From Acidobacteriota bacterium (GTDB taxonomy: Bacteria; Acidobacteriota; Polarisedimenticolia; Gp22-AA2): a stretch of 22,675 bases of DNA. The translations under genes were made by a program, and so were the position numbers. The notes under the pieces are model-generated. The model had not been told where the DNA came from, made no database searches, and saw only the letters and a program-made list of their open reading frames with translations. The DNA is taken from assembly GCA_016202915.1 (NCBI GenBank), contig JACQNT010000049.1:1-22675 (forward strand). Direction: 5' to 3'. This document shows, piece by piece, positions 2,661 to 22,519 of the stretch; position 1 is the first letter of the stretch; every line of letters begins with the position of its first letter.

Positions 2661-4763
2661 CTAGCGGGAGGGGGCGGAGCCGGCCGGTTCGAGGGGGAAC
2701 TTTCCGGAGTACCTGAGCATCTGCATGGTCAGGTCGGAGGCGTACTCGATCCGGGCGTCGATCACCTCGCCGGCAGCGTCCCGGACCGGCACCACGTCGG
2801 GCATCACGAAGGCCACGTAGGAAGGGATGCCGGCGCGCTCGGCGCGCCCGACGACCTCGTCCCGCAGGGCGGGAGCGATGCGGATGGCGAACCGCTCCAT
2901 CAGGTCCCGGGCGGCCGCGAAGTCCCCCTCCCCCTTGATCCTCTGGACCTCGGCCAGGAGGTCGGCCACACCCCGGCGCATGGCGGCGATGTCCTTCACC
3001 CGCATGTAGGTCCTGCCGTCCCGGCGGACCCGCTCCACCGCCCCGGTCACCTCGCGCAGGTGGCCGACGATCAGGTGGATCGCCCGCATGTGGTCGTCCT
3101 CGAGGACCTCCCCCTGGCGGATCCTCCGCAGCATGTAGAGATCGTCGGTCGCATAGTCCCGGTACGCCGCCTCGGCGACCTCCGCCGAGCGGACCGCGCC
3201 GATCTCGACCAGCTTCGGATCGAAGAAGTGGTGCAGGGCGATCAGCTCCGCGCGGGCCTCCTCCAGCGCGGAGTAGTGCTCCCGGAGATGGTCCCGGGGA
3301 TCTCCCTGGAGAGCGTCGCTGACCTTGCCGGAGGCGTGGCCGAGGACCTCGTGCATCGCCGTGTGCAGGAGGGCGATGTCGGCGCCGTGCGCCTCCTGGA
3401 GCGGGCGGTCCTCCGGGAGGAAGAACTCCGCCACCTTCCTGGAGCGCGCCGCCCGCTCCGCGGAGTCCATCACGTTGACGAGCGACACGCTCTTGTTGCC
3501 GTGGCGCTCCCTGATCGCCTCCTCGTTCGGCAGGTTGATGCCAACCGGGGGCATCGGGCCGCTGTCCCCGACGGCGACCAGGACGTTCACGGCGTTGGCG
3601 ATCGGGATGTTGAATTCCTTCCTCGTGTAGCGCTCGTCCCACGGGGCGCGGTCCTCGAAGTACCGGGCCAGGCCGGCGAGGTCCTTCTGGATCCGGTTCA
3701 TGCGGCGATCCACGAAATAGACCAGGCCCTCGAACGCCCCCTTCTGGCCGCGCGGGTCCTTGTACGTCTCGATGAACCCGTTGACCGTGTCGACGGGCGC
3801 GTCGTGCCGCACCCAGGCGATGTTGTAGCGCCGGAACGCCTCCGGATCGCCGCCGGCGAAGTAGTCGATGAGGCGCCCCAGGATCGCCGCCTGGGCGGGG
3901 TCCGCGAAGGCGCGGGCCTTCTCCAGGAAGCCGATCGCCGTCTGCAGCTCCGCGGCGTAGCGGCCGGGAGGGACCTCCGCGCCGGCGCCGGAGGCGCCGC
4001 CGGCCCGGCGGCCGGCCCGGTACACCTCCTCGACCACGGAGCCGCCGCGCTTCACCAGCCGGGAGTTGAGCGCGTGCCTCTCGTCGAAGCCGCGCAGATC
4101 ATCGAGGGTGACCCCGGCGTGGAAATTCACGCTGCTGCAGGTCAGGATGTCCTGCCCCGGCTGCGGCGTCTTGCAGGTCGACAGGGGCTCGAAATCGGGG
4201 TCGAAGATCGCGCGCCGCAGGCGGGCGAGCTTCGCCTGGAGCGACTCGCCGAGCGCCAGGCGGATGCGCGCCCCGTCGCGCACGGCGGCCCTGGCGGCCC
4301 CCTCGAGCTGCTCGAAGGTGAGCTCCGGGACGAACTTTCTTCGCGTCCGGTCGTTGTGGTTGCCGTTGTTGATCCAGTACAGCTTCAAGTATTGATGCAG
4401 GGCCTCGCGGACGTCCCCGGGGATCTCCCGCGGGTGGGTCAGGATCTCCTCCAGGAGATCGCGCACCTCCAGGCCGTCCCGCCCCATCTGGTCGTAGAAG
4501 ATGTCGCGCCCGGCGATGGCCGCCCGGCAGAGGTAGTAGGCGAGCGCCCTCTCGCGGGGCGACAGGTCCTCGAAGCCGTCGGCGTACAGGCGCGCCACGG
4601 CGAACTCCCCGACCGTCTCGAGGAGATACAGGCGGGTATCAGGCTCTGTGGCGGATCGGTCCATGGTCCTGGTGCCGGTGTCCGGGCAGGCGACCGTGAC
4701 AAGAGCCGTGGCCAGGCTGCATGCCAGGATGCGCGCCCCCGGCGTGGAGTCGTGCCGTTTCAT
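2661..4763 (-). CDS. Dipeptidyl-peptidase III (M49 family zinc metallopeptidase)
   Basis: 700 aa with ATG at 4763. The two M49 signature motifs HEVLGH (HExxGH) and EEARAE (EExRAE) are present. N-terminal hydrophobic signal, possibly a lipoprotein (ACS/VAC). Confidence 0.85.
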   Translation of the reverse strand: MKRHDSTPGARILACSLATALVTVACPDTGTRTMDRSATEPDTRLYLLETVGEFAVARLYADGFEDLSPRERALAYYLCRAAIAGRDIFYDQMGRDGLEVRDLLEEILTHPREIPGDVREALHQYLKLYWINNGNHNDRTRRKFVPELTFEQLEGAARAAVRDGARIRLALGESLQAKLARLRRAIFDPDFEPLSTCKTPQPGQDILTCSSVNFHAGVTLDDLRGFDERHALNSRLVKRGGSVVEEVYRAGRRAGGASGAGAEVPPGRYAAELQTAIGFLEKARAFADPAQAAILGRLIDYFAGGDPEAFRRYNIAWVRHDAPVDTVNGFIETYKDPRGQKGAFEGLVYFVDRRMNRIQKDLAGLARYFEDRAPWDERYTRKEFNIPIANAVNVLVAVGDSGPMPPVGINLPNEEAIRERHGNKSVSLVNVMDSAERAARSRKVAEFFLPEDRPLQEAHGADIALLHTAMHEVLGHASGKVSDALQGDPRDHLREHYSALEEARAELIALHHFFDPKLVEIGAVRSAEVAEAAYRDYATDDLYMLRRIRQGEVLEDDHMRAIHLIVGHLREVTGAVERVRRDGRTYMRVKDIAAMRRGVADLLAEVQRIKGEGDFAAARDLMERFAIRIAPALRDEVVGRAERAGIPSYVAFVMPDVVPVRDAAGEVIDARIEYASDLTMQMLRYSGKFPLEPAGSAPSR

Positions 4764-4830: not shown

Positions 4831-6345
4831 CTACAGGGCGTCCGTGGCGCTCAGGATCCCGCCCAGGTACAGTTCCCGCTTCTCTCCCGCCCGGGCGCGG
4901 AGGCGCACGCCGATGAAGAAGTCGAATTCGGAATACGCGCTCTGCAGGAGGCGCTCGAGCCCCTCGATGTCCTTGACCTGTCGCCAGCGGGCGGTGTCTC
5001 GCTCAGCCCGCTCGAGATCCTTCTTGACGAGAAGGCTCTGGAGCAGATCACCCGGCGCCACCTTTTCCGCCGCCGCCTCCGATCCGGGGAGCACCCTGGT
5101 GACCATCAGGCCCGACGAGCCGCGCGGCGCGATCTCGAACCCGCCGTAGAACCGGAGCAAATCGGCTCCCTCCAGACGGGGACGGTCCGGCCGGAGCGCC
5201 AGGGTGACCGGGACCGTGAGGCGCTCCCGGGCCCGGGCGATCTCGATGCTCCAGGCCTCGTCCGGCCTGGCGCCGAGGAGCCTGGCGTGGACCCGGGCGG
5301 TCGAGAGATCCTCGTCCCCCTGGATCTTCAGCAGGCCGTCGCCGCGGCGCAGGCCGGCCCGGGCGGCGGGGCTCCCCGGGAACACGTTCTCGATAACCCG
5401 GCGCACCTCGGATGGCAGGGAGTACGTGGAGCGGGTCTCCGGATCGGCGGCGATGGTGTGGATGCCGATCCAGGGACGCCCTGGCCGCCCGGCGCGGATC
5501 CAGGCCAGGGCCCTCTCGATCCATTCGAGCGGAATGGACCAGCGGACGCCGATGTCCGGTCCCATGATCATGTGGCGGCCGACCGGCAGGGCCGTGCTCA
5601 TGCCGACCAGTTTCCCCGCGTCGTCGATCATCGGCCCTCCCGCGAACCCCGCGGGCAGTGAGGCATCGGTCTGGATGTAGTCCTCGATCGGATGAATCCT
5701 CTGGCCTCCGCGGTGCAGGCCGCTGACTACGCCCGCCGACGAGGACAGCTCATGCGCCGCCAACCCGCCGGAAGGGAAGCCCAGGGCGTTCAGCGACTCT
5801 CCCAGTCGCAGGGGGCCCCTGCGCCGCTCCAGCGGCGGCACCTGCTTGAGGTCGGCCTCAAGGAGCGCCACGCCGATGAGCGGGTCCATGCCGATCACCC
5901 GCGCCGGGACGCCGCGGCCGTCCAGGGAGCGCAGGGACACCTCCCTGGCGCCGTTCAGCAAGCCGGCGTCGCTGACGAATTCGCCCGGGGCGATGGCGAA
6001 GGCGCTCCCGAGGATCGACCCGACCTCGACCGACTCGCCGTAAACGATGGCCCCGAAGGCCGAGGTCAACTGCTTGTCGTGCACCGCCGTCAGCTGCACG
6101 ACCGACCGCCGGGCACCCGGACGGTCTGCCGCCTGGACGGCCGGCCCGGCCGGCGCGGCGCCGACCTTGCGGCCGCAGCGGGTGCAGAAGGCGGCACCAG
6201 GCTCAGTGGGGGCGCCGCAGGCCGGGCAGCGATCGTGGGAAGCCACGGGGGGCTCGGCGGTTGCGGGGGGTTCGGCTGCGACGGGAGCGGCCAGCCACGC
6301 CGCCAGCACCAGGAGGAGAGCGAGGGAGCGTCGTCGCGTCATCAT
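4831..6345 (-). CDS. HtrA/DegP-like pseudo-protease with N-terminal C4 zinc-ribbon and PDZ domain (triad His->Gly, Asp->Gly, Ser->Ala)
   Basis: 504 aa. Signal peptide MMTRRRSLALLLVLAAWLAAPVAA. Zinc-ribbon CPACG-x10-CTRCG. Trypsin-fold core aligns with the upstream active paralog, but the triad positions read SDAGL (His lost), GVALL (Asp lost) and GFAGGP (Ser lost). PDZ-like C-terminal region. ATGA start/stop overlap with the upstream gene at 6345. Confidence 0.85.
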   Translation of the reverse strand: MMTRRRSLALLLVLAAWLAAPVAAEPPATAEPPVASHDRCPACGAPTEPGAAFCTRCGRKVGAAPAGPAVQAADRPGARRSVVQLTAVHDKQLTSAFGAIVYGESVEVGSILGSAFAIAPGEFVSDAGLLNGAREVSLRSLDGRGVPARVIGMDPLIGVALLEADLKQVPPLERRRGPLRLGESLNALGFPSGGLAAHELSSSAGVVSGLHRGGQRIHPIEDYIQTDASLPAGFAGGPMIDDAGKLVGMSTALPVGRHMIMGPDIGVRWSIPLEWIERALAWIRAGRPGRPWIGIHTIAADPETRSTYSLPSEVRRVIENVFPGSPAARAGLRRGDGLLKIQGDEDLSTARVHARLLGARPDEAWSIEIARARERLTVPVTLALRPDRPRLEGADLLRFYGGFEIAPRGSSGLMVTRVLPGSEAAAEKVAPGDLLQSLLVKKDLERAERDTARWRQVKDIEGLERLLQSAYSEFDFFIGVRLRARAGEKRELYLGGILSATDAL

Positions 6346-7952
6346 CAGTAGACCGGCGGGGCAAGAAGGTCGGGAAGGAGGCTGAAGTAGGTGCGCCGTT
6401 CGGGTTTGCCGTCCTCGGTACGGACCTCCAGGGGCACGATGTAGGCGGAGCTCGCCACCGTGCCCTTCTGACCGTCCATCTCCCCGAAGATGTGGCCGTT
6501 CTCCGAGCGGATGATGTCCCGGAAGGTGTCGAAGCGGCGAACGTGCCTGCTGTAAACCCGCACGATGGTGTCGCCGTTCTTGTATCCCGCCTCGGCGCCC
6601 CGCCCCCCGGGGACCAGATCCTTGATCAGGAGGCCGTGCCGCGAGGTCGGCCCGGTCGTCACCTCGACGAGGTTGGCCTGCAGGGCCTCCCTGATTTCAT
6701 CGACCGGGTCGAGCAGAATGCGGTCCGGGCGCGTGCCGGGCGCGACCGCGGCGTCCGTCTCCTGTCCGGCACGCAGGAGTGTGAGCCCCAGGGGCGGGCT
6801 GCCAGGCGAGGCGGCGAGCAGGCGTGCCCCGGCCTCGGCCACCGTCGCCACCTTCTGTCCCCGCACCGCGAGGATGATGTCGCCGGGACGCACACCGGAT
6901 GACTCGGCGGGCGAGCCGGGAACGACGTACGCGACCAGCGGCTGCGTGACGGCCGGTTCGAGACCGAACCGGGCGCGCTGGCGATCATCCGGCGCCACCA
7001 ACCCCATGCCGAAATAGACCCTCTGGGGACGGGTCTTGTGGGACATGATCTCGACCATCGGGCCGACATCGCCGGCCGGCACGGCGTAGGCCAGGCTGGG
7101 GCTGGGTCCGCCGAGCAGGGTCCCTGCCAGGCCGCCGCGCAGATCGATGAGCGGGCCGCCGGTGCATCCTCCCGGCAGGGTGTGATCGGTCCGCAGGAGG
7201 TTCTCGAAGGCGACGAGGCTGGTGCCGGACTGTCCCGTCGCCGTGATCCGGCCGCGGTGCAGCGACTGCGGAAGGTAGTGGACGAGATCCTCCTCCATCG
7301 CGACGGGGTAGCAGATCGCCCAGGCTCCTTCACCCGTCGCGGGTTCGGATTCGGCCGGCTGCAGGGGCGCCGACCCCTGGAGATCGGCCCGCAGCAGGCC
7401 GATGCCGGAGGGGATGTCATAGCCCAGGATCTCGGCGGCGACGAGCCGGTTGTTGTAGGTGCGGACCTGCGGCGCGCTCGCCCGCTCGAGTACGCGGGCG
7501 GAGGTGACGAAGAGGCCCGGGCCGCCGTAGGAGAAGGCGGTCGCGAAGGCCTTGTGCCTGCCCGGCTTGAAGTCCATCAGGCGGTACCGGGTGATGAGCC
7601 TCTGCAGATCCGTCGGCAGGAGTTCCTTCGGATTGAGATCGTCCTTGACCACCACGAGCCCGACGACTGAGCGGCTGATCGCTTCCAGGCGACGGGCGGC
7701 CTCCGGCCCGGTCAGAGTGCGGAGGTCCCAGCCGCAGCTGGCGCAGTGGCGCCAGGCGCCGTCGCACCGGTAGCCGCACCGGGGGCAAATCCTCTGCGCG
7801 GTCGCCGGCCGGGCGGCGCCCTCGGGCGGGAGGGCAGGAGGCGCCGGACCCGCCGGCACCGGCAGCCCGGCCAGCGCGCCCGCCACGACGCCGGCGCTGA
7901 GCAGCGCCATCAACCACAGGAGAGTCTCAGAGGACGATCGCCCAGGACTCAT
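6345..7952 (-). CDS. HtrA/DegP-like pseudo-protease with N-terminal zinc-ribbon and PDZ domain (triad His->Arg, Asp->Gly, Ser->Thr)
   Basis: 535 aa. Hydrophobic N-terminus, zinc-ribbon CPRCGYRCDGAWRHCASCG. TSARV where TNAHV is expected, GIGLL where DLALL is expected, and GCTGGP where GNSGGP is expected. Two PDZ-like segments. The start at 7952 overlaps the stop of the upstream gene by 26 nt; an alternative ATG lies at 7910. Confidence 0.85.
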   Translation of the reverse strand: MSPGRSSSETLLWLMALLSAGVVAGALAGLPVPAGPAPPALPPEGAARPATAQRICPRCGYRCDGAWRHCASCGWDLRTLTGPEAARRLEAISRSVVGLVVVKDDLNPKELLPTDLQRLITRYRLMDFKPGRHKAFATAFSYGGPGLFVTSARVLERASAPQVRTYNNRLVAAEILGYDIPSGIGLLRADLQGSAPLQPAESEPATGEGAWAICYPVAMEEDLVHYLPQSLHRGRITATGQSGTSLVAFENLLRTDHTLPGGCTGGPLIDLRGGLAGTLLGGPSPSLAYAVPAGDVGPMVEIMSHKTRPQRVYFGMGLVAPDDRQRARFGLEPAVTQPLVAYVVPGSPAESSGVRPGDIILAVRGQKVATVAEAGARLLAASPGSPPLGLTLLRAGQETDAAVAPGTRPDRILLDPVDEIREALQANLVEVTTGPTSRHGLLIKDLVPGGRGAEAGYKNGDTIVRVYSRHVRRFDTFRDIIRSENGHIFGEMDGQKGTVASSAYIVPLEVRTEDGKPERRTYFSLLPDLLAPPVY

Positions 7953-9537
7953 CGAAGGCCACCGAAGTCAAGGGATACTGGTCCTCTCCGCAATGGATCG
8001 CCGCGGCGAATCGCCCGCCCAGGTAGGCCCGTCCCAGGGCGCGGCGCAGGTCGTCGAGACCGCCGACCTGCACGACCCCGGGCAGCTTCTTGTAATCGAC
8101 AAGATCGATCCAGGTATCGGGCCAGTCCTGCGCCGGCAGTACGCTCGTGAGGCGGCAGCCGTCCGACAGCCCGTACTTGCGGGCCACGCTGAATTCGTCG
8201 GTCATCCGCAGAGTCACGCCCTTCCCGCCCGGCTCCTCCTCGACGCGCACCATCAGATACCGTGCCAGGTCAAGGATCGGGTCGATGCGGGGTTCCTCCG
8301 GGCGCGCGACGGTCGTCACCGGAAGCTCCAGGACCTGGCCGGTGCGGTCCAGGGTCATGCGCAGGCTCACCCCAGGTCCGACACTGGCGACCGCCTCCTG
8401 GAGGAGGTACGTGGCGGCGGCCTCGCGGCCGTTGATGCCAAAGAGGACATCTCCCGGGTTGAACCCGGCCCCCGCTGCGGGCGATCCCGCCAGGACCGAC
8501 TCGACCACCGAGCCTGTGGCCCGCTTCACCGTGAACCGCTGGAGGGCCTCCGCATCGACCGGGCGGACCTGGACCCCCAGGAATCCCCGCTCGTAAGTGC
8601 CCCGCTGCCGCAGGCGCTCCATCACCAGACGGGCCATCTTCGAGGGGATTGAGTAGCCCTGCCCCTTGGCCTGGTGGAAGCCCATGTTGCTCACCCCCAC
8701 GACCCGTCCCAGCAGGTCCACGAGGGGCCCGCCGCTGTTGCCGCCGGTGATGGAGGCGTCGGAGTGCAGGAAGTTCTCCACCTGCTGGAGGCCGGTGCGC
8801 AGCCGCGTCATGCTGGAGATCGTCCCCCGGGTAACCGAGATGCCGAGGTCGAGTGGATTGCCGATCGCCCAGGTCTCCTCGCCGAGGCGGACTTGGTCCG
8901 AATCACCCCAGGTGAGCGGGGGAATCGAGCCCGAATCGATCTTGAGGAGCGCCAGGTCGCTGGCGCGGTCGATCCCCAGGACGCGGGCGGGGAAGCTGCG
9001 GCCGTCCTGCGTTTCGACGGTCAGCCGGGCCTGGGTTCCGAAAGGGCTGGCGACGTGGGCGTTGGTGACGATCTCGCCGTCCGGAGAGACGGCGAACCCG
9101 GATCCCGCCAGACGGCCCTCGTCGTCGAAGGATTCGAGCCTGCCCTTGTAGCCCCGCAGGCGGGTCGAACGCTCGATCACCGGGTACCTCAGCTTCGCGG
9201 CCGCCTTGACCCGGACCCGGACGACCGAGCGGGTGGCGCGGCGGACCGTCTCCTGGATCTCCCCGGCCGACAGTGTCTCGGGAGCCCGCAGGAAGCCGCC
9301 CGCGTAGCGAACCGGATCGATGGCAGGGAGCGGACTGCCGTCCTTGAGGCAGAAGCGGCTGCCGGCGCGGTTCTGCGCCCCGCAGACCGGGCAGAAGACG
9401 GAGGCCGAGTCACGGACCGGCTGCAGTTGCGCGGAGCCGGAGTCCGGTTCCTGCGCCGGCCCGATGTCCGTCGCCGGGAGCAGCAGCATCGCCGCGATCG
9501 GCGTCGCGTTGCGCCATGAGGATCGTCGGGTGTGCAT
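7927..9537 (-). CDS. HtrA/DegP-family serine endoprotease with intact catalytic triad, N-terminal 3-Cys ribbon-like motif and PDZ domain
   Basis: ATG at 9537 with a GGGAGA RBS. The longer GTG (9684) and ATG (9672) starts would overlap the divergent OPT promoter. Catalytic motifs TNAHV (His), DLALLKI (Asp) and GNSGGP (Ser) are present. CPVCG-x10-C follows the signal peptide. PDZ: GFLGVQV...GDVLFGINGR. Confidence 0.85.
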   Translation of the reverse strand: MHTRRSSWRNATPIAAMLLLPATDIGPAQEPDSGSAQLQPVRDSASVFCPVCGAQNRAGSRFCLKDGSPLPAIDPVRYAGGFLRAPETLSAGEIQETVRRATRSVVRVRVKAAAKLRYPVIERSTRLRGYKGRLESFDDEGRLAGSGFAVSPDGEIVTNAHVASPFGTQARLTVETQDGRSFPARVLGIDRASDLALLKIDSGSIPPLTWGDSDQVRLGEETWAIGNPLDLGISVTRGTISSMTRLRTGLQQVENFLHSDASITGGNSGGPLVDLLGRVVGVSNMGFHQAKGQGYSIPSKMARLVMERLRQRGTYERGFLGVQVRPVDAEALQRFTVKRATGSVVESVLAGSPAAGAGFNPGDVLFGINGREAAATYLLQEAVASVGPGVSLRMTLDRTGQVLELPVTTVARPEEPRIDPILDLARYLMVRVEEEPGGKGVTLRMTDEFSVARKYGLSDGCRLTSVLPAQDWPDTWIDLVDYKKLPGVVQVGGLDDLRRALGRAYLGGRFAAAIHCGEDQYPLTSVAFDESWAIVL

Positions 9538-9568
9538 GGGGGTCTCCCGATGGCCGAGGATGCGCCAC

Positions 9569-9598
9569 ATTCTATGGGAACCGGACGCGCGGCCGCAA
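9569..9598 (-). promoter_or_regulatory. Candidate promoter TTGCGG-18-TAGAAT for the protease operon
   Basis: Minus-strand -35 (plus 9593-9598) and -10 TAGAAT (plus 9569-9574). About 25-nt leader to the ATG at 9537. Confidence 0.4.
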
Positions 9599-9634
9599 CG
9601 CCCCGCGGCCCCACAATCGCCGGGACGCCGTCCG

Positions 9635-9663
9635 TTGACACCTCCGGGGGGCTGAGGTAAAGT
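9635..9663 (+). promoter_or_regulatory. Candidate promoter TTGACA-17-TAAAGT for the OPT transporter
   Basis: Consensus -35 TTGACA at 9635-9640 and -10 TAAAGT at 9658-9663. About 90-nt 5'UTR before GGAGAGG and the ATG at 9759. Confidence 0.5.
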
Positions 9664-9758
9664 CCCGCGCATCGCACGACGCACCCCGCACCTGGATTTC
9701 GAGCTGTCCGCACCGGCGCATGAGGATCAACAGCAGCAAGGATCGAGACTGAGGAGAG

Positions 9759-11771
9759 GTGGGCATGCGAACCGAATCGCGAGCGGGCGCGGCGACCGCG
9801 GAGAAGGCGTTCCGGCCGTTCGTCGCCGACACGGCCACGGTCAAGGAGTTCACCCCCAAGGCGGTCCTCCTGGGCGCCTTCTTCGCCGTCCTGTTCGGCG
9901 CGGCCACCGTCTACCTGGCGCTCCGGGCCGGCGTCACGGTCAGCGCCTCCATCCCGATCGCCGTCCTGGCGATCGCCGTGTTCAAGAGGATCGGCTCGAC
10001 CATCCTGGAGAACAACATCGTCCAGACGATCGGATCGGCTGGGGAGTCGGTGGCGGCCGGGGTCGTGTTCACCGTCCCGGCCTTCCTCTTCCTGGCCTCG
10101 GCCGCCGGCGGGGAGCGCTTCTTCAAGTACTGGCCGATCCTGATGCTGTCGATGGCGGGCGGATTCCTGGGCGTCCTTTTCATGGTCCCGCTCCGGCGCA
10201 GTCTCATCGTGCAGGAGCACGGCGTCCTGCCGTACCCGGAGGGGACTGCCTGCGCCGAGGTGCTGGTCGCGGGCGAGCGGGGTGGCGCCATGGCCCGGAT
10301 GGTCTTCAACGGGCTGTGGATGGCGATGATCTACAAGCTGTTCAACACCGTCCTCGGCTTCTTCAAGGAGGTTCCATCCTACGTCACGGGGAGGAGCGCC
10401 CCCCTTCCCAACGCGACCGTAAACGCCGAGATCGTCCCGGAGTACCTGGGGGTCGGATACATCATCGGGCCGCGGGTGGCGGGGATCATGGTGTCAGGGA
10501 GCATCCTGGGGTGGGTGGCCCTGACGCCGCTCCTGTCGCTGTTCGTCAGCGAGCAGCAGCTCCACGACCAGCTGCGCTCCCTGGGCTTCACGCAGGGCTG
10601 GATCGACACGCACGGGCTCAACGAGCAGTTCTACCGCGGCTACGTCCGCCTGATCGGCGCGGGGGCGGTGGCGATGGCCGGGATCATGACGCTGGCGAGG
10701 ACGCTGCCGACGATCTGGTCGGCGTTCCGCGCCAGCGTCCGGAGCCTCGGCGGCGGGACCGGAGGCGGGGTGATGGCGCGGCGCACCGAGAGGGACATCC
10801 CGATGTCGGTCGTGCTGGGCGGCTCCGCCGTGCTGGTCCTGGTGATCGCCCTGTTCATGCCGGGCCTGCCGACCCGCTTCCCGGGAAGCCTCCTGCTGGC
10901 GTTGCTCATCGTCGCCTTCGGGTTCTTCTTCGTCACCGTCTCGTCGCGCATCGTCGGCATCATCGGATCGACCAGCAACCCGATCTCCGGGATGACGATC
11001 GCCACGCTGATGGGGACCTGCATGTTCTTCATCCTGATCGGATGGGCCGGGGACGTGTACCAGACCGCCGCCCTGGTCGTGGGCGCCATCGTGTGCATCG
11101 CCGCGGCCAACGCCGGCGCCACCTCGCAGGATCTCAAGACGGGGTACATCGTCGGCGCCACCCCCTGGCTGCAGCAGATCGGCCTGGTGATCGGCGTCTT
11201 CGCGTCGGTGTTCGCCATCGGCGGCACGCTGTTCCTGATGCACCACTCGGGCTACGGGCCGATTGGATCCGACAAACTGCCGGCGCCCCAGGGGACCCTC
11301 ATGGCGACGCTCATCCAGGGGATCCTCGGCCAGAACCTCCAGTGGGGCTTCGTGTTCGTCGGGGCGGCGCTCGCCGTGATGGTGCAGGTCATGGGGATTT
11401 CCTCCCTGGCCTGGGCCGTCGGCGCCTACCTGCCGCTCTCGACCACGATGCCGATCTTCATCGGGGGGATGATGCGGCTCATCGCCGAGAGGGTGGGCGG
11501 CAAGAGGGAGGAGTCGGAGGTCTCATCCGGGATGCTCTACAGCACCGGCCTGGTCGCGGGAGGATCGATCGGCGGCGTCCTGATCGCGGCCCTGTCGGCC
11601 GCCCCCTGGGGCGAGGGGAATCTCCTGGAGGTCGTCAACATCGGCCACCGCTGGCGCATCGTGGCGATGCAGGGGGTGGCCGCCGACCTGATCGCCCTCG
11701 CCGTCTTCGGGTTCCTGTGCCTCCTCCTCCTGCGGGCCGCGAGGAAGAAGATCGAGGGGATGGAGGCCTGA
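9759..11771 (+). CDS. OPT-family oligopeptide transporter
   Basis: 670 aa with many TM helices. The N-terminal region FTPKAVLLGAFFAVLFGAATVYLALRAGVTVSASIPIAVLAIAVFKR is characteristic of bacterial OPT-family permeases. Strong RBS. Confidence 0.9.
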   Translation: MGMRTESRAGAATAEKAFRPFVADTATVKEFTPKAVLLGAFFAVLFGAATVYLALRAGVTVSASIPIAVLAIAVFKRIGSTILENNIVQTIGSAGESVAAGVVFTVPAFLFLASAAGGERFFKYWPILMLSMAGGFLGVLFMVPLRRSLIVQEHGVLPYPEGTACAEVLVAGERGGAMARMVFNGLWMAMIYKLFNTVLGFFKEVPSYVTGRSAPLPNATVNAEIVPEYLGVGYIIGPRVAGIMVSGSILGWVALTPLLSLFVSEQQLHDQLRSLGFTQGWIDTHGLNEQFYRGYVRLIGAGAVAMAGIMTLARTLPTIWSAFRASVRSLGGGTGGGVMARRTERDIPMSVVLGGSAVLVLVIALFMPGLPTRFPGSLLLALLIVAFGFFFVTVSSRIVGIIGSTSNPISGMTIATLMGTCMFFILIGWAGDVYQTAALVVGAIVCIAAANAGATSQDLKTGYIVGATPWLQQIGLVIGVFASVFAIGGTLFLMHHSGYGPIGSDKLPAPQGTLMATLIQGILGQNLQWGFVFVGAALAVMVQVMGISSLAWAVGAYLPLSTTMPIFIGGMMRLIAERVGGKREESEVSSGMLYSTGLVAGGSIGGVLIAALSAAPWGEGNLLEVVNIGHRWRIVAMQGVAADLIALAVFGFLCLLLLRAARKKIEGMEA

Positions 11772-11811: not shown

Positions 11812-13194
11812 GTGACCACGCTCCGCCGCGAGCTGCGGCTGTGGGACCTGGTCCTCCTGAACGTGGTCGCCATCACCGGCTTGAGGTGGTGGCTGACCTC
11901 GGCGGGAGGATACGGCTACGCCGCGCTGCCGCTGTGGGGGCTGGCGTTCCTGTGCTTCTTCGTCCCCTCCGGCCTCGCCGTCATCGACCTGACCACCCGC
12001 TACCCCGAGGAGGGGGGCATCTACGCCTGGACCAAGCGCGCCTTCGGCGACGGCCACGGGTTCATCTCCGGCTGGTGCCTGTGGACCAACAACCTGATCT
12101 ACTTCCCCCACTTATTGATCTTCACCGTCGGGAACTTCATCTTCATGCTCGGGCCGGAGCGGGCCAATCTGGAGGACAGCCCCCTGGTCATGATGGCGGC
12201 GTCGCTGCTCCTTTTCTGGATCGCCGTCTGGATGAACGTGCGGGGGCTGCGCTACGGCCGCTGGCTGAACAACCTCGGGGCGTTCGGCACCTGGGTCCCG
12301 GCGACGCTGCTCACCCTCCTGGGGGCCTGGGCGGTCGCGCGCTACGGGGCGGCCACGCCGTTCGCGGCGTCCGGCCTGGTCCCGGTGTTCAGCCTGGGGA
12401 CCGTGGCGTTCTTCGCGCAGATCTGCTTCGGCTACTCGGGCCTCGAGCTCGGATCGATGATGGGAGAGGAGATCGTCGAGCCGCGGAAGAACGTGCCCCG
12501 CGCCATCCTGATCGCCGGCGCGATCATCACCTTGATCTACATGCTCGGGACCGCGGCCCTGCTGTTCGCGCTGCCCCAGAGCGAGATCGGGATCCTGAGC
12601 GGCGTCGGCGTCGCCATCGCGGCGGTCCAGGAGAAGATGGGGCTCGGGTTCCTGGCGGGGATCTCGGCGCTGCTGATCGCCCTCGGGGGGATGGGGGGCG
12701 TCAGCGCCTGGCTGGCCGGATCGTCCCGGATCCCGTACGTCGCGGGGATCGATCGCTACCTGCCTGCGTCATTCGGCAGCGTCCACCCGCGCCGCGGATC
12801 GCCGCACGTCGCCCTGCTCGTCACCGGGGGCGTGTCGAGCCTGCTGATCGTGATGAGCTTCGCGGGGGCCGGCGTCAGGGAAGCCTACCTGCTCCTCGCC
12901 GACTTCACCATCGTCGTCTACTTCATCCCCTACCTCTACCTCTTCGCCGCCCTCATCCGGCTGGGCGTCCCCGGGACCGTCACGCCGGGCGTCATCCCCG
13001 TCCCGGGCGGGCGGCCCGCCACCATCCTGGTCGGCGCCGTGGGCTTCCTGACCACCGCCACGGCGATCCTCTTCGCCTTCAGCCCCCCCGAGGGGACCAA
13101 CCGCTGGGTCTTCGTCGGGAAGATCCTGGGCGGCTGCGTCCTCCTCCTGGTCCTGGGGTGGCTCCTCTACAGGCGCGGCCGCCGCGCGGCCTGA
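11812..13194 (+). CDS. APC-superfamily amino-acid permease
   Basis: 460 aa, about 12 TM segments. N-terminus LRRELRLWDLVLLNVVAITG is typical of the APC family. GTG start 40 nt after the OPT stop with no clear SD, so it is probably co-transcribed. Confidence 0.8.
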   Translation: MTTLRRELRLWDLVLLNVVAITGLRWWLTSAGGYGYAALPLWGLAFLCFFVPSGLAVIDLTTRYPEEGGIYAWTKRAFGDGHGFISGWCLWTNNLIYFPHLLIFTVGNFIFMLGPERANLEDSPLVMMAASLLLFWIAVWMNVRGLRYGRWLNNLGAFGTWVPATLLTLLGAWAVARYGAATPFAASGLVPVFSLGTVAFFAQICFGYSGLELGSMMGEEIVEPRKNVPRAILIAGAIITLIYMLGTAALLFALPQSEIGILSGVGVAIAAVQEKMGLGFLAGISALLIALGGMGGVSAWLAGSSRIPYVAGIDRYLPASFGSVHPRRGSPHVALLVTGGVSSLLIVMSFAGAGVREAYLLLADFTIVVYFIPYLYLFAALIRLGVPGTVTPGVIPVPGGRPATILVGAVGFLTTATAILFAFSPPEGTNRWVFVGKILGGCVLLLVLGWLLYRRGRRAA

Positions 13195-21055: not shown

Positions 21056-21424
21056 TCAGACCTCGATGGCGCCCTCCAGCTTGGGGAAGGTCGGGATGGT
21101 CATCTCCAGCCCGGCCATGTGGTAGTAGCCGCCGGCCTTCCCCGGCAGGACCACGAAGCGCATCTCCGCCCCCGCCGCGCGCGCCTTGTGGTAGGCCTCC
21201 GGGGCGGCGCTGGCCACCGTATCGTCGGCGAAATGCGATCCCGTCAGGTCGATCACGACCCGGCGCGCTCCCGACCGGAGGAGGCTGTCGACCTCTTCCA
21301 GGAAGCGCTTCTCGGGAGTTCCCGCGGCGAACTTCCCGCGGACCTCGAGGACCCACCAGCCGCCCAGCGAGCGGCTCTCGATGCGGCAGAGACCGCGACG
21401 TCTGAACCATGACAGTGGTGTCAT
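21056..21424 (-). CDS. STAS-domain protein (anti-sigma-factor antagonist-like) with Asp at the usual phospho-Ser position
   Basis: ATG at 21424 with a GGAGGG RBS. 122 aa aligning to the adjacent STAS protein: RRVVIDLTGSHFADDTV versus KNVVLNLGGVSYMDSAG. Confidence 0.7.
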   Translation of the reverse strand: MTPLSWFRRRGLCRIESRSLGGWWVLEVRGKFAAGTPEKRFLEEVDSLLRSGARRVVIDLTGSHFADDTVASAAPEAYHKARAAGAEMRFVVLPGKAGGYYHMAGLEMTIPTFPKLEGAIEV

Positions 21425-21461
21425 CGTTTGGCCCTCCGTTTCGTGGGCCTCGCCGGACACC

Positions 21462-21485
21462 CGGTGGACGGGATCGGTGGACGGG
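21462..21485. repeat. Direct repeat cggtggacggg x2 (13-nt period) in the intergenic region between the two STAS genes
   Basis: Read directly at 21462-21472 and 21475-21485. Confidence 0.5.
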
Positions 21486-21573
21486 TTGGGTGGGGGCGCG
21501 GTGTCGCGGTGTGGCCCCGGTGCGGCAATCATCGGCCTCCCGGGGGGCTTCCGTCAAGAGGAGAGAAGGAAAC

Positions 21574-21909
21574 CTAGAAGCTGGCCAGGGCCTCCCGCTC
21601 GTCGCGGAAGATGTCGAAAATCTCCTGGAGTTTGGTCAGGATCAGGAGATCCTGGACCTTGCCGTTCGGGTTCAGGAGCTTCAGCGACGCCCCCTTCTCG
21701 GTGGCCCGCTTGTAGCACGCCACGAGCTCCCCGATCCCGGCGCTGTCCATGTAGGACACCCCGCCCAGGTTCAAAACGACGTTCTTGCGCCCCTCGTCGA
21801 GGAGGGCGCCGACCGCCTGCTTCAGCTTGATGTCCCCTTCGCCGATCGTGATCTTCCCCGACAGATCCACGACGGTGACCTTCCCGTGGTGCCTGGCGTT
21901 GGCCTTCAT
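21574..21909 (-). CDS. STAS-domain anti-sigma-factor antagonist (RsbV/SpoIIAA-like)
   Basis: 111 aa. VLNLGGVSYMDSAGIGELV carries the conserved phosphorylatable Ser. GGAGGAG RBS. ATGA overlap with the upstream kinase gene. Confidence 0.85.
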   Translation of the reverse strand: MKANARHHGKVTVVDLSGKITIGEGDIKLKQAVGALLDEGRKNVVLNLGGVSYMDSAGIGELVACYKRATEKGASLKLLNPNGKVQDLLILTKLQEIFDIFRDEREALASF

Positions 21910-22370
21910 CCTCTCCTCCGTTTCATGACCTCGCCGCCGCGGCCCGCCCCGCCGACGTGCTCCAGTCTCTTCTCCAGGACGACCTCGGTCCCCTTCCCGC
22001 GGCGGCGCAGGAAGGTCACCTGGTCGACGAAGTGCTTCATGAAAAAAATCCCCCGGCCGCTGGTGCGGAAGATGTTTTCCGGGTCGAGCGGATCGATCGT
22101 CCGGTCCCAGTCGAACCCGGGGCCCTCGTCCCGCACCCGCACCCGGAAGAGATCGGAATTCTGCTCGAAGGCGATCTCGACCGGCTTGGTGGCCTCCATC
22201 CCGTTGCCGTGCTTGATGGCGTTGATGACCGCTTCCCGCACCGCCAGCCCGATGTTCAGCGCCGCGTTCTTCGAGAAGCCCGCCTCCCGCGCCAGGTCCT
22301 CCGCCACCTCGTGGACGAGGTCAACGTAGGCGATCCGGCTCCACAGCCTGAGCTTGACCTTTCTGCCCAC
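21906..22370 (-). CDS. Anti-sigma regulatory factor, Ser-protein kinase (RsbW/SpoIIAB-like, GHKL ATPase)
   Basis: N-box EAVINAIKHG, G1 box RDEGPGFD and G2 box GRGIFF are present. The proposed GTG start at 22370 gives ~154 aa. The track ORF extends to 22628 through low-complexity sequence that contains a promoter, so the start is uncertain. Confidence 0.65.
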   Translation of the reverse strand: MGRKVKLRLWSRIAYVDLVHEVAEDLAREAGFSKNAALNIGLAVREAVINAIKHGNGMEATKPVEIAFEQNSDLFRVRVRDEGPGFDWDRTIDPLDPENIFRTSGRGIFFMKHFVDQVTFLRRRGKGTEVVLEKRLEHVGGAGRGGEVMKRRRG

Positions 22371-22459: not shown

Positions 22460-22519
22460 ATGGTAGCCAAACGGCCGCGGGGGTGTCAATTGCCGCCGCC
22501 TCTGAGCTATCCCCAGTTT
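22460..22519 (-). promoter_or_regulatory. Promoter TTGACA-18-TACCAT plus second copy of the upstream 21-nt motif (AAACTGGGGATAGCTCAGAGG)
   Basis: Minus-strand -35 (plus 22484-22489) and -10 (plus 22460-22465). The motif lies at plus 22499-22519, again exactly 9 nt upstream of the -35. Confidence 0.4.

What the first reader, a model, noticed from the sequence alone, without database searches (positions are those of the whole stretch)
21056..22370. Orphan partner-switching module: kinase + canonical STAS + second STAS with Asp in place of the phospho-Ser, no sigma factor nearby
The operon order is RsbW-like GHKL kinase, then a STAS antagonist with an intact DSAG serine (ATGA-coupled), then after a 149-nt spacer with its own RBS a second STAS protein. 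In the second STAS the aligned position reads ADDT, Ser->Asp, a natural phosphomimetic.

No sigma-factor gene follows; mutS is convergent. A non-phosphorylatable, phospho-mimicking STAS paralog next to a canonical one suggests a decoy or output component in a sigma-independent partner-switching circuit.
Basis: partly seen in the sequence, partly recalled or inferred. Interest (0 to 1): 0.6.

Follow-up and report, generated by a model that had tools for sequence, protein, structure and literature searches.

The report
Kinase, STAS, and acid-locked STAS
An uncultured soil Acidobacterium carries an ordinary protein-phosphorylation switch (a kinase and its serine-bearing partner) next to a second, separately transcribed partner-like protein whose switch serine is permanently replaced by a negatively charged residue; this is a lineage-specific variant of a known kind of signalling module, and its function has not been tested.

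Summary
On the minus strand lie an RsbW/SpoIIAB-like Ser kinase (22370-21906), an ATGA-coupled canonical STAS with D55-S56-A-G (21909-21574), a 149-nt spacer, and a second STAS (21424-21056). HMM, profile-profile and structural alignments all place Asp68 of the second STAS in the phospho-Ser column.

New findings:
- The second STAS defines a tight family confined to Polarisedimenticolia-like Acidobacteriota. Its phospho-site is D or E in 82 of 85 aligned rows, with repeated D/E interchange.
- It has its own conserved sigma70-type promoter, so it is a separate transcription unit, not the third cistron of the operon.
- It is adjacent to the kinase-STAS1 pair in 32 of 39 informative loci, in two gene orders. 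One clade has it elsewhere, twice near an orthologous sigma54 activator.
- No sigma gene was seen in any examined flank (up to 10 kb). Related kinase-STAS1 pairs sit beside FHA-GAF-PP2C phosphatases and GGDEF cyclases.

Best reading: a phosphorylation-immune, charge-locked accessory STAS that mimics phospho-STAS1 and is controlled by its abundance. That mechanism is inferred, not shown.

A precedent exists in YtvA (E168/E202), and sigma-independent partner switching is well known. I rate this a new variant of a known kind, of moderate interest.

The parts
22460..22489 (-). Promoter-like site of the kinase-STAS1 operon (TTGACA-18-TACCAT)
   Evidence: Found by the scan. The same TTGACAC...TTTGGCTAC[CG]AT element lies about 115-153 nt upstream of the kinase in most related loci, in both gene orders.
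21906..22370 (-). RsbW/SpoIIAB-like GHKL serine kinase, 154 aa, GTG start
   Evidence: PF13581 scores 4.6e-27. phmmer matches RsbW 6m36_A at 3.5e-08 and SpoIIAB. The N-box LAVREA..NA..HGN, the G1 motif D.G.GF and the G2 motif GRG are invariant in 32 orthologues. The JGI gene call on L001 gives the same 154 aa.
21574..21909 (-). STAS1, canonical anti-sigma-antagonist-type STAS, 111 aa; Ser56 codon at 21744-21742
   Evidence: PF01740 scores 1.6e-17 and TIGR00377 scores 70.9 bits, above its cutoff. SYMDSAGIGELVAC is invariant in 35 orthologues. The start overlaps the kinase stop as ATGA. Identity is 81-94% across the full-length loci where STAS2 is only 56-70%.
21528..21557 (-). Promoter-like site of STAS2 (TTGACG-18-GATGAT) inside the STAS1-STAS2 spacer
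   Evidence: Found by the scan. TTGACG plus a TATnnAT-like -10 lies 83-140 nt upstream of the STAS2 ATG in 28 of 30 distinct loci, including loci where STAS2 precedes the kinase or stands alone.
21425..21520 (-). Predicted STAS2 leader of about 96 nt. It holds conserved motifs: GACACC at 21505-21500, GGTGTC at 21461-21456, CCCGTCCACCG twice at 21485-21475 and 21472-21462, and the SD GGAGGG at 21437-21432.
   Evidence: Shown in alignment A2. There is no Rfam match. The consensus fold is weak and the folding z-scores are unremarkable.
21056..21424 (-). STAS2, divergent single-domain STAS, 122 aa. Asp67 codon at 21226-21224, Asp68 (phospho-site column) at 21223-21221, Thr69 at 21220-21218.

Best explanation
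**Shown**
- The kinase and STAS1 form a standard RsbW/RsbV-type phosphorylation switch. The kinase has intact ATP-binding motifs, STAS1 has an invariant DSAG serine, and the two genes are translationally coupled.
- STAS2 is a genuine STAS fold. Its phospho-acceptor position is permanently acidic: Asp here, and Asp or Glu across the family.
- STAS2 is transcribed from its own conserved promoter.

**Inferred**
- STAS2 cannot be toggled by the kinase and is locked in the charge state of phospho-STAS1.
- It most likely acts in the same network as a constitutive mimic of STAS1~P. In that role it would not be held by the kinase. It would instead occupy the partner(s) that recognise the phosphorylated form: the FHA-GAF-PP2C phosphatase encoded elsewhere, and/or a downstream effector.
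- Its influence would then be set by its abundance (own promoter plus long leader) rather than by phosphorylation.
- The circuit's output is probably not an adjacent sigma factor.
For: - **Phospho-site column:** fixed by HMM alignment, profile-profile alignment and the structural model.
- **Acidic residue conserved:** D in 59, E in 23 and N in 1 of about 85 aligned rows, with D/E interchange on several branches. Random loss of regulation would instead give A, G or N, as seen in other non-Ser STAS.
- **Linkage to the kinase-STAS1 pair:** adjacency holds in 32 of 39 informative loci and survived a transposition from downstream of STAS1 to upstream of the kinase.
- **Separate transcription:** both units have their own conserved promoters.
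- **STAS1 looks like the hub:** it is far more conserved than the kinase or STAS2.
- **Non-sigma neighbours in relatives:** kinase-STAS1 pairs neighbour FHA-GAF-PP2C and GAF-GGDEF genes, never sigma genes.
- **Phosphatase present in the class:** the same phosphatase architecture exists in Polarisedimenticolia.
- **Literature precedent for a phospho-form partner:** the phospho-form, or an S56D mimic, of the STAS protein HsbA has its own partner, the cyclase HsbD (PMC5085249).
- **Literature precedent for a natural mimic:** natural Glu residues at STAS phospho-sites in YtvA are interpreted as phosphomimics (PMC3019169).
Against: - No interaction, phosphorylation or expression data exist.
- Asp and Glu imitate phospho-Ser imperfectly.
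- An acidic residue at a helix N-terminus could be purely structural.
- One STAS2 clade sits away from any kinase, so physical linkage is not obligatory.
- The most conserved STAS2 segment (PGxAGGYYHMAGLE, residues 94-107) differs completely from STAS1. This argues against STAS2 being a faithful surface mimic of STAS1~P.
- I could not show that the phosphatase and STAS2 occur in the same genome.
Confidence: 0.35

Rival explanations
1. Stressosome-like co-antagonist. STAS2 plays the role of RsbR/YtvA. It forms a hetero-complex with STAS1 (RsbS-like) that holds the kinase. Its fixed negative charge replaces the constitutive RsbR-T171 phosphorylation that primes phosphorylation of the Ser-bearing STAS.
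For: - YtvA carries Glu at the two RsbR phospho-sites (PMC3019169).
- The component list is the same: one kinase, one Ser-STAS and one acidic STAS.
Against: - STAS2 has only about 12 residues before the STAS fold and no sensor domain.
- The kinase matches RsbW and SpoIIAB. No RsbT chain appears at E<=0.01.
- STAS1 matches RsbV, SpoIIAA and TM1442 rather than RsbS.
- The gene order is not R-S-T.
- The kinase-STAS1 pair exists widely without STAS2.
Confidence: 0.2
2. Phosphorylation-independent STAS with its own, unrelated partner. The acidic residue is a structural helix cap or a ligand or partner contact. Adjacency to the kinase pair is historical. STAS2 works elsewhere, for example on the sigma54 enhancer-binding protein found beside it in two orphan loci.
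For: - The orphan clade lacks an adjacent kinase.
- In L015 and L042, STAS2 lies beside orthologous sigma54 EBPs with a conserved short N-terminal domain (68% identity).
- STAS2 has its own promoter.
- It has a unique invariant motif, GGYYHMAGLE, that STAS1 lacks.
- Acidic residues occur sporadically at this column in unrelated STAS proteins, in 5 of 153.
Against: - Adjacency is retained in two gene orders across divergence down to 56% identity.
- The EBP association comes from one clade, so it is effectively a single event. It is absent from the other orphan loci.
Confidence: 0.25
3. STAS2 is still a kinase substrate, phosphorylated one residue downstream (Thr69 here; Ser or Thr in most homologues). 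On this reading it is a second regulated antagonist rather than a locked one.
For: - Position 69 is S or T in about 73 of 85 aligned family rows.
- Some STAS proteins have two adjacent serines whose acceptor is uncertain, for example RbaV S56/S57 (PMC8256260).
Against: - Position 69 is Ala in 10 members.
- Canonical STAS proteins also carry S, A, T or G at +1 without using it.
- All alignments are ungapped and place Asp68 on the acceptor column.
Confidence: 0.08
4. Classical sigma control. The kinase is an anti-sigma factor for a sigma factor encoded elsewhere in the genome. STAS1, and perhaps STAS2, are its antagonists.
For: - The best named matches of the kinase are RsbW and SpoIIAB.
- Only a 22.7-kb contig of this MAG is available.
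Against: - Kinase scores are far below the RsbW and SpoIIAB equivalog cutoffs: 53.7 against 145, and 51.6 against 135.
- No sigma gene appears in any flank examined, up to 10 kb.
- Neighbours in relatives point to PP2C and c-di-GMP components.
Confidence: 0.12

Closest known systems
RsbW-RsbV / SpoIIAB-SpoIIAA partner-switching pairs (Bacillus)
   Same: A small GHKL Ser kinase with N, G1 and G2 boxes is translationally coupled to a single-domain STAS carrying a DS[SA]G serine.
   Different: There is no adjacent sigma gene or phosphatase. Scores are far below the equivalog cutoffs. A third component, an acid-locked STAS, is attached.
YtvA (and Lmo0799), RsbR-family STAS proteins of the stressosome with Glu at the phospho-sites
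   Same: A natural acidic residue replaces the phosphorylatable residue of a STAS domain in a protein that works alongside phosphorylatable paralogues. It is interpreted as a phosphomimic (PMC3019169).
   Different: YtvA has an N-terminal LOV sensor and sits in an RsbR/S/T stressosome. STAS2 is a bare STAS domain next to an RsbW/RsbV-like pair.
HsbR-HsbA-HsbD (Pseudomonas) and SiaABCD: sigma-independent partner switches with c-di-GMP output
   Same: The phosphorylated STAS, or its Ser->Asp mimic, has its own partner, a diguanylate cyclase (PMC5085249). Acidobacterial relatives of this kinase-STAS1 pair are flanked by a PP2C phosphatase and a GAF-GGDEF protein.
   Different: In the window lineage neither PP2C nor GGDEF is adjacent. 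Those systems use a single STAS whose state changes, not a second permanently acidic STAS.
Chlamydia RsbW with two antagonists RsbV1/RsbV2; mycobacterial RsfA/RsfB (recalled from memory, not tested here)
   Same: One kinase or anti-sigma factor is served by two STAS proteins with different regulation.
   Different: Those second STAS proteins are phosphorylatable or redox-regulated, not acid-substituted at the acceptor site.

Membership tests
STAS domain (Pfam PF01740) | Score at or above the Pfam gathering threshold | tested here: met
   STAS2 scores 31.7 bits and STAS1 scores 63.6 bits, against a cutoff of 22.6.
STAS domain (Pfam PF01740) | SpoIIAA-like alpha/beta fold | tested here: met
Anti-sigma factor antagonist (SpoIIAA/RsbV type, TIGR00377) | Score at or above the NCBIfam cutoff (53.45) | tested here: not met
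   STAS2 scores 16.7 bits, which is not met. STAS1 scores 70.9 bits, which is met.
Anti-sigma factor antagonist (SpoIIAA/RsbV type, TIGR00377) | Phosphorylatable Ser/Thr after the conserved Asp at the N-terminus of helix alpha2 | tested here: not met
   STAS2 has Asp68 in that column, and the family has D or E there. STAS1 has Ser56, invariant across orthologues.
Anti-sigma factor antagonist (SpoIIAA/RsbV type, TIGR00377) | Binds and antagonises a cognate anti-sigma kinase | not testable with these tools
   Only gene adjacency to the kinase is available.
RsbW/SpoIIAB anti-sigma serine kinases | HATPase_c_2 domain with N, G1 and G2 ATP-binding boxes | tested here: met
   PF13581 scores 4.6e-27. 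The boxes are invariant in 32 orthologues and align to RsbW and SpoIIAB.
RsbW/SpoIIAB anti-sigma serine kinases | Equivalog-level score (RsbW 145, SpoIIAB 135 bits) | tested here: not met
   The scores are 53.7 and 51.6 bits.
RsbW/SpoIIAB anti-sigma serine kinases | Cognate sigma factor gene in the same operon or neighbourhood | tested here: not met
   No sigma gene was detected among the window ORFs scanned, nor among the called genes within 10 kb on long related contigs. A distal sigma factor cannot be excluded.
Stressosome (RsbR-RsbS-RsbT) | RsbR-type protein with an N-terminal sensor domain plus a C-terminal STAS | tested here: not met
   STAS2 is 122 aa, and only about 12 residues precede the fold.
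Stressosome (RsbR-RsbS-RsbT) | RsbT-type kinase and RsbS-type STAS | tested here: inconclusive
   The sequence search of solved structures returns RsbW and SpoIIAB for the kinase, and RsbV, SpoIIAA and TM1442 for STAS1, but not RsbT or RsbS. No dedicated RsbT or RsbS profile was scored.
Sigma-independent partner switch with PP2C input (HsbA/SiaC/SypA-like) | Cognate PP2C (SpoIIE-family) phosphatase | tested here: inconclusive
   None is adjacent in the window lineage. An FHA-GAF-PP2C is adjacent to orthologous pairs in other Acidobacteriota. In Polarisedimenticolia it sits at a second locus. Presence in the same genome is not shown.

The most novel reading that the evidence does not exclude
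STAS2 is a new regulatory device: a dose-controlled, phosphorylation-immune mimic of a phospho-STAS. It couples a partner-switching network (two kinase-STAS pairs and an FHA-GAF-PP2C) to a non-sigma70 output. It could do this by titrating the phosphatase, or by binding the short N-terminal domain of the sigma54 enhancer-binding protein found beside it in orphan loci.
Probability: 0.15. Interest if true: 0.6.

Novelty: new variant of a known kind. Interest (0 to 1): 0.38.

Why it matters
Partner-switching modules are among the most widespread bacterial signalling devices. How they are wired when no sigma factor is attached remains poorly understood.

This locus offers a natural experiment. A STAS protein has been fixed by selection in the 'phosphorylated' charge state, is expressed from its own promoter, and sits beside a normal kinase-STAS pair. 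If it acts as a mimic of the phospho-form, it would show that cells can tune such a switch by the dose of a locked paralogue rather than by kinase-phosphatase balance. It would also extend the single documented precedent, YtvA, beyond the stressosome.

The practical impact is limited, because the family is confined to an uncultured acidobacterial class.

Tried and rejected
- **Longer ORF from ATG 21532 (158 aa): rejected.** Gene callers mostly give 122-aa homologues (61 of 79), all starting at the equivalent Met. A 13-nt indel in near-identical L001 breaks that frame. A conserved promoter overlaps it.
- **Register shift putting Thr69 on the acceptor column: rejected as the alignment.** HMM and hhalign alignments are ungapped.
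- **Asp68 as an acyl-phosphate acceptor: unlikely.** Glu replaces it in 23 members.
- **Structured RNA or riboswitch in the STAS2 leader: not supported.**
  - No Rfam hit, even at E<=10.
  - RNAalifold gives only -2.3 kcal/mol with one 5-bp stem.
  - Folding z-scores range from -2.0 to +1.1 in 10 loci.
- **Sigma54 promoter upstream of STAS2: none found.**
- **Sigma factor or PP2C elsewhere in the window: none found.**
- **Complex modelling (kinase:STAS2, STAS1:STAS2): not attempted.** The structure tool returns no inter-chain confidence.
- **Literature search for an acid-substituted single-domain STAS next to an RsbW-like kinase:** it found nothing beyond YtvA/Lmo0799.
Full report
**1. What is in the sequence**

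The window is an entire 22,675-bp contig of an Acidobacteria MAG. Three genes lie on the minus strand at its right end.

- Kinase: 22370-21906, GTG start, 154 aa. It matches PF13581 (HATPase_c_2, E 4.6e-27) and, among named families, RsbW and SpoIIAB, although far below their equivalog cutoffs. In the PDB sequence search its best relatives are RsbW (6m36_A) and SpoIIAB.
- STAS1: 21909-21574, 111 aa. It starts in an ATGA overlap with the kinase stop. It passes the anti-sigma-antagonist model TIGR00377 (70.9 bits against 53.45) and carries YMD55-S56-AG.
- STAS2: 21424-21056, 122 aa. It follows after 149 nt, with a GGAGGG Shine-Dalgarno 7 nt upstream. It passes Pfam STAS (31.7 bits against 22.6) but not TIGR00377.
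- mutS ends at 21037 on the plus strand, convergent to STAS2.

The rest of the window encodes peptidases, transporters, LolA, a Band7/TPR protein and similar genes. No sigma factor or PP2C was detected among the ORFs scanned.

**2. Is Asp really at the phospho-site?**

Yes, by four independent routes.

- I built a profile from 26 STAS2 homologues and aligned 153 other STAS stretches to it. Column 67 is the canonical Asp (135 of 153). Column 68 is the canonical acceptor (Ser 122, Thr 9 of 153).
- Profile-profile alignment of the STAS2 family against the STAS1 family is ungapped over 84 columns (probability 96.5%, E 8.5e-10). It pairs D67 with D55 and D68 with S56.
- An AlphaFold2 model (mean pLDDT 83.5) places A66-D67-D68 in the beta3-alpha2 loop, with helix alpha2 starting at residue 69. 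That is where the phospho-Ser of SpoIIAA sits.

Gene callers mostly give 122-aa homologues (61 of 79), all starting at the equivalent Met. The near-identical contig L001 carries a 13-nt indel inside the putative extension.

**3. The acidic residue is selected, not accidental**

The family has 79 clusters in the 5.8-billion-protein search, all at 57% identity or more. Position 68 is Asp in 59, Glu in 23 and Asn in 1 of about 85 aligned rows. Asp67 is essentially invariant. D/E interchange occurs on several separate branches of the family tree.

By comparison, other STAS proteins that lack Ser/Thr at this column mostly carry A, N, C or G. Only 5 of 153 have D or E.

The +1 position is Ser/Thr in most members but Ala in ten. 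This argues against it being an essential acceptor.

The D/E interchange also argues against an acyl-phosphate role for the Asp.

**4. How wide is the family, and what travels with it?**

A full HMMER scan of 1.84 billion cluster representatives found only one full-length representative plus fragments above 87 bits. Scores then drop to 54 bits for generic STAS proteins. The family is therefore a single tight, isolated clade.

Named records are Acidobacteriota, 'gp22', or Candidatus Polarisedimenticolia, a class of Acidobacteriota. A few SMAG contigs carry other phylum names but have identical synteny. These are probably mis-binned.

Gene arrangement across the 39 loci with enough flank:

| Arrangement | Loci |
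|---|---|
| comM-(Ank)-kinase-STAS1-STAS2, then convergent mutS (the window's order) | 21 |
| comM-STAS2-kinase-STAS1, then convergent mutS | 11 |
| STAS2 away from any kinase (one clade) | 7 |

On the STAS2 tree the second order is monophyletic, as is the orphan group. Each therefore represents one rearrangement event.

Two orphan loci place STAS2 next to orthologous sigma54 enhancer-binding proteins (68% identical, with a conserved short N-terminal domain). The other orphans do not.

The orphan contigs L045-47 come from the same samples as contigs L031/L032. Those carry comM-kinase-STAS1-mutS without STAS2.

**5. Two transcription units, not one operon**

The consensus scan found two sigma70-like sites on the minus strand, against 0.1 expected. 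One is upstream of the kinase (22489-22460). The other is inside the STAS1-STAS2 spacer (21557-21528).

Both are conserved:

- TTGACG-N17/18-TATnnAT lies 83-140 nt upstream of STAS2 in 28 of 30 distinct loci, whatever the gene order.
- TTGACAC...TTTGGCTAC[CG]AT lies about 115-153 nt upstream of the kinase in most loci.

STAS2 therefore has its own promoter and a leader of about 96 nt. The leader holds conserved motifs: GACACC...GGTGTC and a repeated CCCGTC[CA]NCC. I found no Rfam match, only a weak consensus fold, and no unusual folding energy. I do not claim an RNA element.

**6. The core switch and its relatives**

Identity to the window proteins across the same loci:

| Protein | Identity |
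|---|---|
| STAS1 | 81-94% |
| Kinase | 58-79% |
| STAS2 | 56-70% |

The SYMDSAGIGELVAC segment of STAS1 and the kinase N, G1 and G2 boxes are invariant, even in distant loci. STAS1 has more than 2,500 homologues at E<1e-10.

In other Acidobacteriota, where STAS1 is about 70% identical, the kinase-STAS1 pair sits next to a divergently transcribed FHA-GAF-PP2C phosphatase. In some of these loci a GAF-GAF-GGDEF protein lies immediately downstream. STAS2 is absent there.

Polarisedimenticolia MAGs encode the same phosphatase architecture at another locus. There it is paired with a second kinase'-STAS1' pair (the STAS is 60-61% identical to STAS1). That locus also lies beside an FHA-GAF histidine kinase and a REC-sigma54 activator.

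No sigma-factor gene appears in any of these neighbourhoods. The lineage thus appears to have a multi-component partner-switching network, with STAS2 as a lineage-specific add-on.

**7. Mechanism**

Shown:
- A competent-looking kinase/Ser-STAS pair.
- A STAS paralogue-like protein that cannot accept phosphate at the canonical site and is fixed as acidic.
- Independent transcription of that protein.
- Conserved but not obligatory linkage to the kinase pair.

Inferred, at about 0.35 confidence: STAS2 imitates the charge state of STAS1~P. It is not sequestered by the kinase, and it engages proteins that recognise the phospho-form (the phosphatase and/or an effector). Its effect would be governed by expression level.

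Literature support:
- HsbA~P and HsbA-S56D bind the cyclase HsbD (PMC5085249).
- The Glu residues of YtvA at the RsbR phospho-sites are read as phosphomimics (PMC3019169).
- Sigma-independent partner switches are well documented (PMC8256260; bioRxiv 10.64898/2026.04.08.717354).

Against a faithful mimic: the most conserved STAS2 surface motif (PGxAGGYYHMAGLE) has no counterpart in STAS1.

Rival explanations:
- A stressosome-like co-antagonist role. This is weakened by the missing sensor domain and by the RsbW/RsbV-like rather than RsbT/RsbS-like affinities.
- A phosphorylation-independent STAS with an unrelated partner, such as the sigma54 activator.
- Phosphorylation at Thr69.
- A classical distal sigma target.

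**8. Comparison and novelty**

The kinase-STAS1 pair is an ordinary member of the RsbW/RsbV kind, without an attached sigma factor.

STAS2 is a member of the STAS superfamily but fails two defining features of anti-sigma antagonists: the model cutoff and the phosphorylatable serine.

A naturally acidic STAS phospho-site has a precedent in YtvA. What is new here is a bare single-domain STAS with a selected D/E, its own promoter, and attachment to an RsbW/RsbV-like pair in an uncultured acidobacterial class.

I rate it a new variant of a known kind and score its interest at 0.38. The concept is not unprecedented, and the function remains inferred.

Noticed in passing
window 21425-21557 (- strand): STAS2 has its own conserved sigma70-like promoter and a leader of about 96 nt. 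The leader holds an inverted repeat GACACC/GGTGTC (21505-21500 and 21461-21456) and a tandem CCCGTCCACCG repeat (21485-21475 and 21472-21462). The near-identical contig L001 has only one repeat copy. There is no Rfam hit and no convincing RNA fold, so these may be protein-binding DNA motifs.
   Followed up: partly
L015:2724-4076 and L042:3686-4945: In two 'orphan' STAS2 loci the gene lies 204 nt or about 3 kb downstream of orthologous sigma54 enhancer-binding proteins. These are 68% identical, have no receiver domain, and share a conserved N-terminal domain of about 70 aa. In L042 a GT4 glycosyltransferase lies between them. This is a possible functional link, but it rests on one clade.
   Followed up: partly
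L048:345-8668 and L050:358-8722: Polarisedimenticolia MAGs carry a second module. An FHA-GAF-PP2C phosphatase is divergent from another RsbW-like kinase plus a 113-aa Ser-STAS (60-61% identical to STAS1). This sits beside an FHA-GAF histidine kinase and a REC-sigma54 activator. The same FHA-GAF sensor module therefore appears wired to two different outputs.
   Followed up: partly
L029:1704-5947 and L030:893-3290: In other Acidobacteriota the orthologous kinase-STAS1 pair is followed directly by a GAF-GAF-GGDEF diguanylate cyclase. In L029 it is also preceded by the FHA-GAF-PP2C. The arrangement is reminiscent of HsbR-HsbA-HsbD and SiaABCD, and it hints at c-di-GMP output.
   Followed up: no
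window 4831-9684 (- strand): There are three tandem trypsin-like/PDZ (HtrA-like) protease genes, two with an N-terminal zinc-ribbon. Nearby lie an M49 peptidase (2661-4763), an OPT oligopeptide transporter (9759-11771) and an amino-acid permease (11812-13194). Together they look like a peptide-scavenging neighbourhood.
   Followed up: no
L010, L011, L020, L021, L025 (record titles): These contigs have the same acidobacterial comM-module-mutS synteny, with 56-69% STAS2 identity. Their records are titled Patescibacteria, Binatia, Cryosericum, Verrucomicrobiia and Dongiaceae MAGs. They are probably mis-binned contigs in the SMAG catalogue.
   Followed up: no
L001:1690-4364; L012:10392-12934: On these related contigs mutS is split into two adjacent pieces, as two gene calls or two alignment segments. 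It is intact in the window, so an assembly frameshift is likely.
   Followed up: no
window 21091-21147 (STAS2 residues 93-111): The most conserved stretch of STAS2 is PGxAGGYYHMAGLExxIPT. It occupies the position of helix alpha3, yet AlphaFold predicts it as a low-confidence coil (pLDDT about 65). It may fold only on binding a partner.
   Followed up: no
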